Positions 64-62,391 of a stretch of 64,000 nucleotides of DNA are shown here, piece after piece. Made by a program: the position numbers and the translations under genes. Position 1 is the first letter of the stretch; the number at the start of each line of letters is the position of its first letter. The DNA is from Candidatus Poribacteria bacterium. GTDB taxonomy: Bacteria; Poribacteria; WGA-4E; PCPOR2b. The notes under the pieces are model-generated. The model worked only from the letters and a program-made list of their open reading frames with translations. It searched no databases and was not told the origin of the DNA. Location: contig OZ242036.1 in assembly GCA_965205075.1 (NCBI GenBank), forward strand, positions 3,196,795 through 3,260,794. Reading direction: 5' to 3'.

Positions 64-240
64 ATTTCACCCTTTCTAAACAAATCAGAAGAGAGGCATC
101 CAAAAGGAACTATGCACCGCCTACAAAGGCATCAGAAACCGAGTTTTGCATGAGCCCCGTCGGCCGGATTGTTTAGCCCGACTACACTAATGTACCAATG
201 AACCAATTTGTTATCACGTTTTACGTTTCAGGTTTCACGC

Positions 241-9660: not shown

Positions 9661-9911
9661 AATACTGTACCTCCAAGATTTATGGTAGATTTTAGAATTA
9701 CTTAGACACTTCCAATGGACATGTACAGATTGGGAAATCTGTACCCGCAAACAACCCCCTAAATCCCCCTTATCAGGGGGACTTTGGGAAATGTCCACTT
9801 ATTTCTCTAATTCACCATAGAATTTGAACAATCCGTGAGTTAAATTACGAATCCTGCCTAACGGTGTGGTATACTTTTCTAATAACAATCGACTTGAATT
9901 TTTGCCTATCT

Positions 9912-23418: not shown

Positions 23419-23535
23419 GTGCAATCACCAACCCTCAATCCCAAAACATCCTCCCTTGAAATCTGTTTGACTTTGCCCCCGAATTTTGCTACATTGAATA
23501 TCCCCCGAAAAGGGGGTATCTTTCAATTAGTGCAA

Positions 23536-23569
23536 AGAAACCGAGTTTTTTTGGAAAAACTCGGTTTCT
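23536..23569. promoter_or_regulatory. 15-bp-arm perfect palindrome AGAAACCGAGTTTTT-ttgg-AAAAACTCGGTTTCT; operator or stable 5' UTR hairpin
   Basis: Exact inverted repeat, about 60 nt upstream of the cyclase-family gene. The same arms recur at 60926-60959. Confidence 0.4.
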
Positions 23570-41724: not shown

Positions 41725-41854
41725 TAGTAATAGGACTGACGCAGCTGGAAGTTGGGCAGGCACAAGACCTGCCCCTACAAAGGATTACTTCCCTGTAGGG
41801 GAAACCCTTGTGGTTGCCCTTGCTATTCAATTCACAACAAAGGAGACAGCATTC

Positions 41855-59710: not shown

Positions 59711-60002
59711 AAAGGATACGAATAGCATAGCACACCTAGAAAACTTTGTCAACAGTAAAGTCTGTTCATTTTTCTCAATAGTTAAAAAAATCTGAGTTAG
59801 TGGTGAAAATATCAAAAAGAGAATATAACACCTGAATTGAAAACTGGAGGCAAATCAGAATGATTTTTTGTTGACTTTTTCCTACAAAGGTGTTAGGTTG
59901 ATTTGCACGACAGGTGTTCACCATCTGATCTATTACACCCCAAAAATATGTGCGAATTTTGGTTCAAGTACACAACAGCCAGCAAACCAGCAGGAGGATA
60001 TC

Positions 60003-60851
60003 ATGCCTTACAAACTTAGACCAGACAAGATGTATATGATGCCAACACACTTTGGTCCCGGCATGGGACCGAGGCAGGGACCGTGTGGACGCAAATTCGA
60101 GTGTAAGGACAGTCCGAAGTCAACGTCCGTATCAGTCAGCTTTTTGACGAACCGTGAACAACTTCAGGAATTTTTGCCTGAACGCTTCGAGGTTGGCGCA
60201 GAGCCGGTCGTCAGCGTTTCTGCATCCTATATGACGGAGATCGAGTGGTTGGCGGGTCGTGGATACAATGTCCTCGGCGTCAGCTTTCCCGCCATCTTCA
60301 ACGGGGAACGAGATCGCGCTGAAGGCGGGCTGCTGACGGTGCTTTGGGAAAACCTGTGCGATCCGATCCTTACGGGTCGTGAGCAGTTGGGCTTCTCCAA
60401 AATCTACTGTGAGCTTCCGGAGCCGGTCGTGCTTCGCGGAGACACACACTGCATTGCCAGTTGGCTCGGCTTCAAGTTCTTGGATATGGAACTGACGAAC
60501 ATGGAGCAGGTGGCACTGGATCCAAACCCTGCGCCGGCAGCTCCACCTCCGGATGATGGTGTGCTGCGGGGGACCTTGCACTACAAATATATGCCCCGAA
60601 CCGGGGAATGGGGCCAAGGCGATGTCGGGTATGCCGTACTCACGCCGGCAGAAGGAAGCAACAGCATTACTAAAGAACTGTGGCGCGGTGAGGGAACAGT
60701 GGAGTTTCACAAAGCGAGGTGGGAAGACCTACCAACACAGTATCACATAGTCAACGCCTTCCATGAGTTGGAAATTAAAGAATACCGCGGTGCAACCATC
60801 TCTAAAAGCGTTGGCGGCAAAGATCTCAGCGATCAACGAATTCTTCAGTAG
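60003..60851 (+). CDS. Hypothetical protein, possibly acetoacetate-decarboxylase-like fold
   Basis: 282 aa. RBS AGGAGGA 6 nt upstream of the ATG. Weak resemblance only. No firm motif. Confidence 0.4.
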   Translation: MPYKLRPDKMYMMPTHFGPGMGPRQGPCGRKFECKDSPKSTSVSVSFLTNREQLQEFLPERFEVGAEPVVSVSASYMTEIEWLAGRGYNVLGVSFPAIFNGERDRAEGGLLTVLWENLCDPILTGREQLGFSKIYCELPEPVVLRGDTHCIASWLGFKFLDMELTNMEQVALDPNPAPAAPPPDDGVLRGTLHYKYMPRTGEWGQGDVGYAVLTPAEGSNSITKELWRGEGTVEFHKARWEDLPTQYHIVNAFHELEIKEYRGATISKSVGGKDLSDQRILQ

Positions 60852-60925
60852 GGGCGGGGTGACCCTGCCCCTACGGGCAGAGCGAAAAAAAATTATGTAG
60901 GCTCATATCAAAAGAAAGCGCGAAG

Positions 60926-60959
60926 AGAAACCGAGTTTTTGTCAAAAACTCGGTTTCTG
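60926..60959. promoter_or_regulatory. Second copy of the 15-bp-arm palindrome AGAAACCGAGTTTTT-gtca-AAAAACTCGGTTTCT
   Basis: Identical arms to 23536-23569. Located 10 nt upstream of the RBS of the aldo/keto reductase gene. Confidence 0.4.
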
Positions 60960-60980
60960 CAGCACGACTGGAGGCAAGCT

Positions 60981-61970: not shown

Positions 61971-62391
61971 TGCACAGATCTGGAAACTCGCTTTATAGGC
62001 TAACTCGGTCCTATTTATGTTTGATAACCCGTAGGTTGGGTTGAGCGGTTAAAAGCAAATACCTATCAAGGACGATACAGGTTCGGTCATTCAACAACAC
62101 CTGATTATAGACAGATACAGTGAAACCCAACGAAGGGTTTTATCGAGAAATCTTCTCTGCAAAAAGTTAGCTCGTAAAACTGTTCTTTTGTACCACGATC
62201 TGTTAGATTGTGATCCGAGTCCGCAAACTAACAGTTTGCACTACATTTAGCAGATTGATCGATGTTTATAGCGTTTGCCGATCCCGACTTGTCGAGGCTG
62301 CCGATGAATCGGCATTAGCAACATCAAAATGTCAGCAGAACCTAGCCACTTGGGTTAGTATACCGTCTAAAATGGAATAGGCAGATTTAGC

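What the first reader, a model, noticed from the sequence alone, without database searches (positions are those of the whole stretch)
23536..23569. 15-bp-arm perfect palindrome family (AGAAACCGAGTTTTT/AAAAACTCGGTTTCT) upstream of unrelated genes
Identical arms with different 4-nt centres (ttgg here, gtca at 60926-60959) sit in the 5' regions of a cyclase-family gene and an aldo/keto reductase gene. A lone half-site AGAAACCGAGTTTT occurs at 134-147. An exact 15-nt identity at distant loci implies either a shared operator for one transcription factor (regulon) or a mobile miniature inverted-repeat element forming stable 5' UTR hairpins.
Basis: seen in the sequence. Interest (0 to 1): 0.5.

Follow-up and report, generated by a model that had tools for sequence, protein, structure and literature searches.

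The report
Dispersed hairpin repeat, not an operator
The two identical palindromes are copies of a small hairpin-forming repeat scattered between genes at an estimated hundred or more copies per genome in Poribacteria and several unrelated bacterial phyla, so they are repeat DNA of the REP type and not a shared switch for the neighbouring genes.

Summary
Perfect 15-bp-arm palindromes AGAAACCGAGTTTTT/AAAAACTCGGTTTCT lie at 23536-23569 (centre TTGG) and 60926-60958 (centre GTC, not gtca/60959). A truncated copy lies at 134-148.

They are not an operator:
- The centre length varies from 2 to 9 nt among 123 further copies.
- Copies are depleted between divergent genes and lie closer to the upstream stop codon than to the next start.
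- A few copies lie in frame inside real genes.
- Neighbouring genes are unrelated.
- The hairpin is not conserved upstream of cyclase orthologs and is absent downstream of orthologs of copy 2's upstream gene.

The element belongs to a dispersed stem-loop repeat family, at roughly 30-46 copies per Mb. It occurs in Candidatus Poribacteria (the window's source), Chloroflexota, Thiotrichaceae, KSB3/Vecturithrix and others. The stem is almost invariant or changes by compensatory pairs, and the loop varies freely.

It resembles REP elements in size, copy number and placement. It differs in lacking a GTAG/CGTC tag, target-site duplications and RAYT flanking; the RAYT-like genes found are flanked by other repeats. 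No mobilising enzyme was identified.

Best reading: a new, untagged REP-like family, probably spread in trans and between phyla, and at most a generic RNA/DNA hairpin. Interest is modest.

The parts
23536..23569 (.). Copy 1 of the hairpin repeat: 15-bp perfect arms, 4-nt centre TTGG. It lies 118 nt after the Uma2-family gene stop and 59 nt before the cyclase ATG.
   Evidence: An orthologous copy in L116 has loop TCGG and one arm mismatch.
23530..23535 (.). GTGCAA directly 5' of copy 1. It matches the inner end of the longer (about 95 bp) poribacterial composite form of the element (...CGTGCAA|AGAAACCGAG).
   Evidence: Comparison with the 19 composite copies listed. Inference from a short match.
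60926..60958 (.). Copy 2 of the hairpin repeat: same 15-bp arms, 3-nt centre GTC. It lies 75 nt after the upstream gene's stop and 22 nt before the aldo/keto reductase ATG (60981).
60900..60925 (.). GGCTCATATCAAAAGAAAGCGCGAAG: the outer arm of the poribacterial composite element, retained on the left of copy 2. The right outer arm is lost apart from a possible GCACGA remnant at 60962-60967.
   Evidence: Matches the reverse complement of the composite's right part (GCTCATATAAAAGAAAGTGCAAAGCG...) seen in L044, L081, L102 and L108. blastn of L102 and L108 against window 60889-60967 gives about 80% identity.
134..155 (.). Truncated copy: left arm AGAAACCGAGTTTTG followed directly by CATGAGCC, the usual outer terminus of the composite element. 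This looks like an internal deletion derivative, not an operator half-site.
   Evidence: Terminus consensus YATRAGCC. The left-arm variant ...GTTTTG is a poribacterial subfamily. The deletion reading is an inference.
23467..23495 (+). Context only: sigma-70-like promoter TTGACT-17-TACATT with an upstream TG. It is conserved upstream of cyclase orthologs and would place copy 1 in the cyclase 5' UTR.
   Evidence: conservation in L116, L119, L118, L202, L203 and L204.
23502..23516 (+). Context only: small GC hairpin CCCCCGAAAAGGGGG with a T-rich tail (terminator-like), unrelated to the repeat family.

Best explanation
The palindromes are copies of a small dispersed stem-loop repeat: 33-34 bp, a 15-bp stem and a free 3-4-nt loop. 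In kind it is an untagged REP-like element. Shown: it is multi-copy, almost entirely intergenic, biased to the 3' side of genes, nearly identical between unrelated loci, and present in at least four phyla. Pairing is maintained by compensatory changes, individual copies are inherited at orthologous sites, and copies decay, get truncated, get interrupted or form tandem arrays. Inferred: new copies are made in trans by an enzyme that recognises the stem, probably as a hairpin or cruciform whose A/T-rich centre favours extrusion. Only intact stems would then leave descendants while the loop drifts, and the family has moved between phyla. Where a copy is transcribed, in a 3' UTR, an intercistronic spacer or (as for copy 1) a 5' UTR, it would form a stable RNA hairpin. 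That hairpin could at most act generically, for example as a block to 3' exonucleases or a weak bidirectional terminator. It does not co-regulate the cyclase and aldo/keto reductase genes.
For: A relaxed search found 158 paired copies in 933 kb, about 43 of them not used as seeds. The window itself has 2 full copies and 1 truncated copy in 64 kb. Structure: loop length is 3 nt (94 copies), 4 (24), 5 (3), 2 (1) and 9 (1), and one genome has 16 different loops among 24 copies. The 15-bp helix is paired in 95.6% of cells, 7 of 15 pairs show changes on both sides, no shuffle out of 500 reached the covariation score, and the flanking 3 nt do not pair. Placement: 103 of 125 copies are intergenic against about 84% crudely called coding sequence. 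Co-directional, convergent and divergent spacers hold 64, 20 and 7 copies against 51.5, 15.4 and 24.1 expected from intergenic space (p = 2.6e-4; divergent depletion p = 5.7e-6). The median distance is 29 nt to the upstream stop and at least 55 nt to the next start. Repeat-like behaviour: solo arms, a copy split by a 68-nt loop insertion, a copy with a 72-nt insertion plus a 25-nt duplication, tandem arrays, and in-frame copies in a histidine-kinase linker. Orthology: the copy is intact at 96% cyclase identity, decayed in the 73% ortholog, and absent or unrecognisable in the 74-79% orthologs. No copy lies downstream of 85-87% orthologs of copy 2's upstream gene. Lineage-specific compensated stem variants exist, for example AAAACCGGGTTTCT/AGAAACCCGGTTTT in KSB3. 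The placement pattern matches that described for REPs (PMC3733652).
Against: No mobilising enzyme was found. None of 776 neighbouring ORFs forms a transposase cluster, and no transposase or integrase family recurs among 148 immediate neighbours. The two RAYT-like genes in hairpin-seeded loci are flanked by other repeats. There are no target-site duplications, and no clean filled-versus-empty site pair between close strains was obtained, so transposition is inferred and not shown. At several orthologous sites the arms are better conserved than the adjacent spacer (1 of about 29 arm positions against about 18% flank divergence in the unselected copy L073-1271). That could mean host-level selection on each copy instead of selfish spread.
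Confidence: 0.75

Rival explanations
1. Shared operator: a dimeric transcription factor binds the palindrome and co-regulates the cyclase, the aldo/keto reductase and other genes (a regulon).
For: There are two identical perfect palindromes in the 5' regions of two genes. Copy 1 lies downstream of a conserved promoter-like element. Aldo/keto reductase was the most frequent neighbour family, 5 of 148 ORFs.
Against: The spacing between half-sites varies from 2 to 9 nt, mostly 3 or 4, which a rigid dimer would not tolerate. Copies are depleted between divergent genes and lie closer to upstream stop codons than to downstream starts. Density is about 30-46 per Mb. Some copies are in frame inside real genes. 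The aldo/keto reductase neighbours are distant paralogs with the hairpin 46-3491 nt downstream or 927-1784 nt upstream. The hairpin is not conserved upstream of cyclase orthologs. Copies are near-identical, unlike the degenerate sites typical of operators.
Confidence: 0.03
2. Host-selected RNA element: the hairpin exists mainly because it serves each locus as a bidirectional intrinsic terminator or a 3'-end mRNA stabiliser, and each copy is kept by selection.
For: Placement is after stop codons and between convergent and co-directional genes. The architecture is an A-tract (AGAAA), a stem with a GC clamp (CCGAG/CUCGG), then UUUCU followed by pyrimidine-rich flanks on both strands, as in bidirectional terminators (architecture from general knowledge). 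The RNA fold is very stable on both strands. Pairing is maintained by compensation. Arms are better kept than spacer at some orthologous sites.
Against: The terminator scan did not flag either copy, since no T-run follows the full stem. Copies also occur between a promoter and its gene (copy 1), between pyrimidine-biosynthesis genes in L092, and inside ORFs, where a strong terminator would be harmful. Selection for termination constrains structure and not sequence, so it does not explain a 30-nt identity across loci and phyla. Copies decay or vanish at orthologous sites.
Confidence: 0.15
3. Classical REP/REPIN mobilised by a RAYT (Y1/HUH) transposase.
For: Size, copy number, intergenic placement and orientation bias match REPs (PMC3733652). 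REPs also lack target-site duplications. RAYT homologs exist in these genomes, and two lie in hairpin-seeded loci: L105 at E = 2e-41, 1.4 kb from a copy, and L102 at E = 7e-9, about 320 nt from a copy.
Against: There is no conserved GTAG or CGTC tag, and the flanks are not conserved. Both RAYT-like genes are flanked by other repeats: GTAGGTTGGGTTGAGC... elements in L105, and GC-rich GGCGGGGCA...TGCCCCGCC hairpins in L102. The stem is longer (15 bp against 6-13) and A/T-rich. The family spans several phyla, whereas REPIN-RAYT systems are described as mostly vertically inherited (abstract of bioRxiv 10.1101/2022.05.22.493013, listed).
Confidence: 0.1
4. Classical MITE: an internally deleted derivative of a DDE-transposase insertion sequence, whose terminal inverted repeats are the two arms.
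For: The arms are perfect inverted repeats. In Poribacteria the core sits inside a longer imperfect palindrome of about 95 bp with GGCTCAT...ATGAGCC ends. Solo arms and interrupted copies exist.
Against: Target-site duplications of 2-6 nt are at or below the control. No pair of arms more than 100 bp apart brackets a gene in 0.93 Mb. No transposase is enriched nearby. A constant 3-4-nt interior is not what independent internal deletions would give.
Confidence: 0.05

Closest known systems
REP (repetitive extragenic palindromic) elements and REPINs, as catalogued by Di Nocera et al. 2013 (PMC3733652) and Bertels & Rainey 2011 (PMC3116915)
   Same: It is a 20-40-bp palindromic stem-loop with a short variable loop, high copy number and intergenic location. 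It is enriched between co-directional and convergent genes, close to upstream stop codons, with occasional in-frame intragenic copies, no target-site duplication and compensatory stem changes.
   Different: There is no unpaired GTAG or CGTC tag. The stem is 15 bp and A/T-rich, against 6-13 bp. Copies are mostly singletons and not inverted doublets. It does not flank the RAYT-like genes found; those carry other repeats. The same stem occurs in several phyla.
Untagged REP-like stem-loop families, noted in PMC3733652 for M. tuberculosis, D. radiodurans, Bordetella, Brucella and cyanobacteria
   Same: They are dispersed small palindromic repeats without a terminal tag and without a known dedicated transposase. 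This is the class in which the element fits best.
   Different: Those families are lineage-specific as described. I did not compare sequences directly, and none of the literature searched mentions this sequence.
TAACTGA intergenic repeats of Beggiatoaceae, cyanobacteria and Bacteroidetes (PMC4679880)
   Same: A short intergenic repeat with a patchy cross-phylum distribution that suggests horizontal spread, with no evident mechanism. The host range overlaps (Thiotrichales; one odd copy in a Nostocaceae MAG). These hosts belong to a reported gene-sharing network of filamentous bacteria that includes KSB3 (PMC6390638).
   Different: Those are direct heptamer arrays and not hairpins. There is no sequence relation.
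MITEs (miniature inverted-repeat transposable elements)
   Same: It is small, non-coding, multi-copy and has inverted-repeat ends. The poribacterial form of about 95 bp looks MITE-like.
   Different: There is no target-site duplication, no parent transposon, and the interior is only 3-4 nt.
Cross-phylum palindromic operators such as CIRCE (TTAGCACTC-N9-GAGTGCTAA, HrcA) - recalled from general knowledge
   Same: A perfect inverted repeat conserved in sequence across phyla.
   Different: CIRCE has a fixed 9-nt spacer, a few copies per genome and a fixed position upstream of chaperone operons. The present element has none of these properties.

Membership tests
REP / REPIN (RAYT-associated) | Small (20-40 bp) palindromic repeat in high copy number, mostly extragenic | tested here: met
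   The element is 33-34 bp. There are 158 paired copies in 933 kb of held DNA, and 103 of 125 exact-core copies are intergenic.
REP / REPIN (RAYT-associated) | Predominantly between unidirectional and convergent ORFs, close to the 3' end of the upstream ORF | tested here: met
   Observed 64/20/7 against 51.5/15.4/24.1 expected; divergent depletion p = 5.7e-6. The median distance to the upstream stop is 29 nt.
REP / REPIN (RAYT-associated) | Conserved unpaired GTAG or CGTC tetranucleotide at one end | tested here: not met
   The three positions outside the stem neither pair (35%) nor show a consensus, and the pooled flank logos show no tag.
REP / REPIN (RAYT-associated) | A RAYT (Y1/HUH) gene flanked by the repeat | tested here: not met
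   The RAYT homologs in L105 and L102 are flanked by GTAGGTTGGGTTGAGC... elements and GC-rich GGCGGGGCA hairpins, not by this hairpin. Only 1.26 Mb was searched, so whole genomes remain untested.
REP / REPIN (RAYT-associated) | Inverted doublets (REPINs) as the replicating unit | tested here: not met
   Most copies are singletons. Thiotrichaceae show direct tandem arrays. In Poribacteria the core sits at the centre of a larger palindrome and does not form a doublet.
MITE | Target-site duplication flanking the element | tested here: not met
   Direct-repeat matches of 2-6 nt number 7, 1, 1, 0 and 0, against control means of 8.2, 1.9, 0.6, 0.07 and 0.01.
MITE | A related autonomous element with the same terminal inverted repeats and a transposase | tested here: inconclusive
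   None was found in the held DNA: no distant arm pairs and no transposase among neighbours. Complete genomes could not be scanned.
Palindromic transcription-factor operator (regulon) | Fixed spacing between half-sites | tested here: not met
   Centres are 2, 3, 4, 5 and 9 nt in 1, 94, 24, 3 and 1 copies. The two window copies differ, at 4 and 3 nt.
Palindromic transcription-factor operator (regulon) | Location in promoter regions of a functionally coherent gene set | tested here: not met
   Copies are depleted in divergent spacers. Neighbours span 156 Pfam families. The aldo/keto reductase neighbours have no common arrangement. Some copies are intragenic.
Palindromic transcription-factor operator (regulon) | Conservation upstream of orthologous genes | tested here: not met
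   For cyclase orthologs the promoter and RBS are conserved, but the hairpin is present only in the 96% ortholog (intact) and the 73% ortholog (decayed). Orthologs of copy 2's upstream gene have no copy downstream.
Intrinsic (Rho-independent) terminator | G+C-rich stem immediately followed by a U-tract | tested here: inconclusive
   The consensus scan did not flag either copy. If only the inner 10 bp are taken as the stem, the tail is UUUCUNNN with 4-6 U in 8. The stem is A/U-rich apart from the CCGAG/CUCGG clamp.
Any curated RNA family (Rfam 15) | Match at or above the family's gathering score | tested here: not met
   There were no matches in the window or in four other loci. Permissive searches gave only miRNA-precursor-type hairpin noise, at no more than 26 bits against gathering scores of 36-117.

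The most novel reading that the evidence does not exclude
The hairpin is the recognition element of a mobilisation or binding system that has not been described and is distinct from RAYT/REP. That system would be a protein, or a mobile element encoding one, that recognises this A/T-centred 15-bp stem. It would have carried the element horizontally among Poribacteria, filamentous Chloroflexota, Thiotrichaceae, KSB3 and others, and would co-evolve with lineage-specific compensated stem variants.
Probability: 0.2. Interest if true: 0.65.

Novelty: new member of a known kind. Interest (0 to 1): 0.35.

Why it matters
For annotating this window, the point is practical. The palindromes should be labelled as dispersed repeat copies, not as regulatory sites linking the cyclase and aldo/keto reductase genes.

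More broadly, small REP-like repeats are almost uncharted outside Proteobacteria. Here one family keeps an essentially identical 30-nt stem in at least four phyla, most of them uncultured, and the locally found RAYT-like genes are not flanked by it.

That makes the family a usable marker for horizontal exchange among these lineages. It is also a concrete handle for finding whatever enzyme spreads untagged palindromic repeats, a question the REP literature leaves open (PMC3733652). If the hairpin also shapes mRNA 3' ends, it would affect the expression of many genes in these genomes.

Tried and rejected
1. Uma2 link. Copy 1 and a copy in L033 both follow a Uma2-family gene, but only 1 of the 115 loci has a Uma2 homolog, so the association was rejected.
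2. Aldo/keto reductase regulon. This was the top neighbour family (5 of 148), but the genes are distant paralogs with hairpins at scattered positions, so it was rejected.
3. RAYT association. Two RAYT-like genes were found in hairpin-seeded loci, but both are flanked by other repeats.
4. Target-site duplications. None were found.
5. Loop orientation relative to transcription. No bias was found.
6. A larger parent element bounded by the arms. None was found; the only split copy has a 68-nt loop insertion.
7. Phage or plasmid vectors. There were 0 hits in 2.9 million viral contigs and 0 in PLSDB.
8. Rfam at gathering and permissive thresholds. Nothing meaningful was found.
9. Literature searches by sequence string and by topic. 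These returned only primers and similar oligonucleotides, with no description of this repeat.
10. Exact look-up of the window's cyclase protein. It is not on record, so orthologs were reached through a homology search.
11. Orthologous series for copy 2. Relatives at 85-87% identity have a different downstream gene and no hairpin, so no filled-versus-empty comparison was possible.
12. Empty-site polymorphisms among held loci. All orthologous pairs found carry the copy, which partly reflects how the loci were selected.

Full report
**Observation**

The window holds two perfect palindromes with identical 15-nt arms. The first is AGAAACCGAGTTTTT-ttgg-AAAAACTCGGTTTCT at 23536-23569. The second is AGAAACCGAGTTTTT-gtc-AAAAACTCGGTTTCT at 60926-60958. 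The centre is 3 nt, or 1 nt if the arms are read as 16 nt. A lone left arm lies at 134-148, with one mismatch at the last base.

Chance is excluded. Allowing up to 3 mismatches, the 15-mer has 10 matches against 2.44 expected, and no shuffle out of 100 reached 10. Both copies fold into very stable hairpins. As RNA the energies are -19.8 to -24 kcal/mol on either strand (z -4.6 to -7.0). As DNA they are about -15 kcal/mol.

Copy 1 lies 118 nt after the stop of a Uma2-family gene and 59 nt before the ATG of a cyclase-family gene. Copy 2 lies 75 nt after the stop of the upstream gene and 22 nt before the ATG (60981) of an aldo/keto reductase.

**What it belongs to**

The hosts are:
- many Candidatus Poribacteria genomes, each with several copies;
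- Chloroflexota (Ardenticatenaceae, Caldilineaceae, Litorilinea, Ornatilinea and other Anaerolineae);
- Thiotrichaceae;
- the KSB3 bacteria UASB270 and Candidatus Vecturithrix;
- two unclassified MAGs with 12 and 24 copies;
- single copies in Desulfatirhabdium and in a Patescibacteria-labelled contig;
- two atypical single matches, in Methylotenera (2-nt centre) and a Nostocaceae MAG (9-nt centre).

Mis-binning does not explain this spread. The loci differ in G+C from 0.40 to 0.64. One host is a 7.29-Mb single contig. Lineages also carry their own stem variants. The window itself is poribacterial: its cyclase has 96% to about 73% identical homologs, and the named ones are from Candidatus Poribacteria.

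**Anatomy of the family**

In the 115 genome loci, 123 copies have the exact core. The centre is 3 nt in 94 copies, 4 in 24, 5 in 3, 2 in 1 and 9 in 1. Loop sequences are very diverse even within one genome, with 16 different loops among 24 copies in one MAG. They show no orientation bias relative to transcription.

A relaxed search, which allowed each arm to vary independently, found 158 paired copies in 933 kb. Of these, 101 are perfect over 14+14 nt. The search also found many compensated variants:
- CCGAG/CTCGG changing to CCGGG/CCCGG, CTAAG/CTTAG or CCAGG/CCTGG;
- TTTTT/AAAAA changing to TTTCT/AGAAA;
- the outer G-C pair changing to A-T or T-A.

On a non-redundant alignment of 71 copies, the 15-bp helix is paired in 95.6% of cells, and 7 of 15 pairs have changes on both sides. 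No shuffle out of 500 reached the observed covariation score. The three positions outside the helix do not pair (35%), so the element ends exactly at AGAAAC...GTTTCT.

In Poribacteria the core often lies at the centre of a longer imperfect palindrome of about 95 bp, with GGCTCAT...ATGAGCC ends. Window copy 2 keeps the left outer arm of this form (60900-60925). The 'half-site' at 134-148 is followed directly by CATGAGCC, the usual outer terminus. I read it as an internally deleted copy; this is an inference.

**Where copies sit**

Of the 125 exact-core copies (the 123 plus the window's two), 103 are intergenic, in DNA that is about 84% coding by a crude caller.

I compared copy placement with the intergenic space available in the same loci. 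Co-directional, convergent and divergent spacers hold 64, 20 and 7 copies against 51.5, 15.4 and 24.1 expected (chi-square p = 2.6e-4). Divergent depletion alone gives p = 5.7e-6. In co-directional contexts the median distance is 29 nt to the upstream stop and at least 55 nt to the downstream start. This is the placement reported for REP elements (PMC3733652).

A few copies are truly intragenic and in frame:
- A 45-nt-period array in L088 encodes roughly residues 847-896 of a hybrid histidine kinase, between HATPase_c (720-843) and the receiver domains.
- A copy in L060 lies in a melibiase-family ORF.
- Two copies in L027 lie in the N-terminal region of an NRPS ORF.

The 33-nt unit has no fixed stop codon in any frame on either strand; only certain loop sequences would create one. 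This was read directly from the sequence.

**Neighbours and candidate mobilising genes**

The 776 ORFs in the seeded loci form no transposase cluster. The largest clusters are cohesin/dockerin-type surface proteins, Gfo/Idh/MocA oxidoreductases, PhyH proteins, ABC ATPases and response regulators. Genes between closely spaced copies are ordinary, for example a SIS-domain protein and a cyclophilin, and one copy lies between pyrimidine-biosynthesis genes.

A bulk Pfam scan of 148 immediate neighbours hit 156 families, with no recurring transposase or integrase. Aldo/keto reductase was the most frequent family, at 5 ORFs. Those genes are distant paralogs (24-33% identity) with the hairpin 46-3491 nt downstream or 927-1784 nt upstream. 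They therefore give no regulon signal. A Uma2 link was also rejected, with 1 of the 115 loci positive.

I then searched all held DNA (1.26 Mb, six frames) with the E. coli RAYT, after verifying the sequence against PDB entry 4er8. This found a strong homolog in L105 (E = 2e-41) and a weaker one in L102 (E = 7e-9). Both are flanked by other repeats. L105 has GTAG-tagged elements of about 170 bp beginning GTAGGTTGGGTTGAGC. L102 has GC-rich GGCGGGGCA...TGCCCCGCC hairpins. The focal hairpin lies 1.4 kb and about 320 nt away respectively.

No target-site duplication accompanies the element. It was not found in 2.9 million viral contigs or in PLSDB plasmids. Rfam has no matching family. The literature held here does not mention the sequence.

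**History at orthologous sites**

For copy 1, the promoter-like element TTGACT-17-TACATT (23467-23495) and the ribosome-binding region are conserved upstream of cyclase orthologs down to 73-74% identity. Copy 1 therefore probably lies in the cyclase 5' UTR.

The hairpin itself is not conserved:
- It is present at 96% identity with one loop change and one uncompensated arm change, in a spacer that is 94% identical overall.
- It is clearly decayed in the 73% ortholog, as AGAAACCAAGTTT...AAACGCGGTTTCT.
- It is absent or unrecognisable in the orthologs at 74-79% identity. One of these has a short UTR that looks like an empty site.

For copy 2, the closest relatives of the upstream gene (85-87%) have a different downstream gene and no hairpin. 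About 330 kb of related DNA that was not selected for the hairpin holds only the copies at the cyclase site, so abundance is lineage-specific.

Among poribacterial loci, five orthologous pairs carry the copy in both genomes, with flanks 82-89% identical. In these pairs the arms are better preserved than the adjacent spacer. In one copy not selected by my pattern, 1 of about 29 arm positions differs against about 18% flank divergence. The loops change between orthologs, and one copy has acquired a 72-nt insertion with a 25-nt duplication. The sample is small and partly biased by how the loci were fetched.

**Interpretation**

The operator reading fails on five counts: spacing, placement, copy number, neighbour diversity and ortholog conservation. 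The data fit a dispersed stem-loop repeat of the REP kind.

An invariant or compensated stem with a freely drifting loop is what one expects if only copies with an intact stem can be copied again. The same pattern would arise if pairing is selected at each site. The cross-phylum identity and lineage-specific variants point to horizontal spread followed by within-lineage amplification. Gene sharing among Thiotrichales, cyanobacteria, KSB3 and Desulfonema has been reported (PMC6390638). So has another small repeat with a patchy cross-phylum distribution and no known mechanism (PMC4679880).

What is shown is the family, its anatomy, its placement, its inheritance and its decay. What is inferred is mobilisation in trans by a stem-recognising enzyme, and any RNA-level role. 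The A-tract/stem/U-rich-tail layout and the 3'-end placement are compatible with weak bidirectional termination or 3'-end protection. However, the terminator scan flags neither copy. Copies inside operons, 5' UTRs and ORFs also argue against strong termination.

**Classification**

The element meets the descriptive REP criteria of size, copy number, extragenic location and orientation bias. It fails the two features that define tagged, RAYT-associated REPs: it has no GTAG/CGTC tag, and it does not flank the RAYT-like genes found. It also fails the MITE criterion of target-site duplication.

It is best filed with the loosely defined untagged REP-like stem-loop families, which the REP survey lists as known but uncatalogued (PMC3733652). 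That makes it a new member of a known kind. Its unusual traits are a long A/T-centred perfect stem and a multi-phylum host range.

**Verdict**

The finding is real and the operator idea is wrong. The 'mobile inverted repeat' idea is approximately right. Interest is modest (0.35). The open and more interesting question is what spreads or binds this hairpin across phyla.

Noticed in passing
window 60848-60874 and 41754-41819: A second palindromic repeat type, G+C-rich: GTAGGGGCGGGGT-g-ACCCTGCCCCTAC, and GGGCAGGCACAAGACCTGCCCCTACA / TGTAGGGGAAACCC... The same type of hairpin (GGCGGGGCA..TGCCCCGCC, GTAAGGCGGGGCA..TGCCCCGCCTAC) flanks a Y1-transposase-like gene in L102, so this may be a true RAYT-associated REP family of Poribacteria.
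   Followed up: partly
window 62031-62135; L105 3469-3628 and 4211-4440: An exact GTAGGTTGGGTTGAGC, followed about 90 nt later by GTGAAACCCAAC, lies just after the aldo/keto reductase stop. In L105, elements of about 170 bp starting with the same GTAG-tagged sequence flank both sides of a strong RAYT homolog (E = 2e-41). This looks like a classical REPIN-RAYT system, and the window copy looks partial.
   Followed up: partly
window 9681-9819; L098 2067-2205: A 139-bp segment is 95% identical to a segment of another poribacterial genome. It has imperfect inverted ends (TATGGTAGATTTTAGAA...TTCTCTAATTCACCATA) and an internal CCCCCTTATCAGGGGG hairpin. It is probably a separate MITE-like repeat family.
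   Followed up: no
window 23467-23495 and orthologs (L116, L118, L119, L202, L203, L204): A sigma-70-like promoter (TTGAYT, 17 nt, TGCTACAYT) is conserved upstream of cyclase-family orthologs even where the rest of the upstream region is not alignable. It is a good candidate for the real promoter of this gene.
   Followed up: partly
L088 4156-4303; L027 5404-5486: In Thiotrichaceae MAGs the hairpin forms short direct tandem arrays together with 12-20 nt of duplicated flank. In L088 the array has a 45-nt period and is translated as part of a hybrid histidine-kinase linker.
   Followed up: partly
L039 4662-4791 (orthologous to L011 4107-4139 and L073 1271-1301): One orthologous copy carries a 72-nt insertion that itself contains another small palindrome (GGTGCGGTTtccAACCGCACC). 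The insertion is flanked by a 25-nt direct duplication made of one hairpin arm plus adjacent flank. That duplication is unusually long, and its origin is unexplained.
   Followed up: no
L035 925-1020: A copy of the hairpin is split by a 68-nt insertion exactly in its loop (AAAACCGAGTTTTT...68 nt...AAAAACTCGGTTTT). This suggests the loop or palindrome centre can be a target for other insertions.
   Followed up: no
L122-L124, immediately after the stop of the orthologs of the window gene 59868-60851: A short palindrome, AGAATCTCGGATTCT (AGAATCTCGGGTTCT in L124), overlaps the stop codon. It loosely resembles the outer part of the focal hairpin (AGAAAC...GTTTCT), and this may be coincidence.
   Followed up: no
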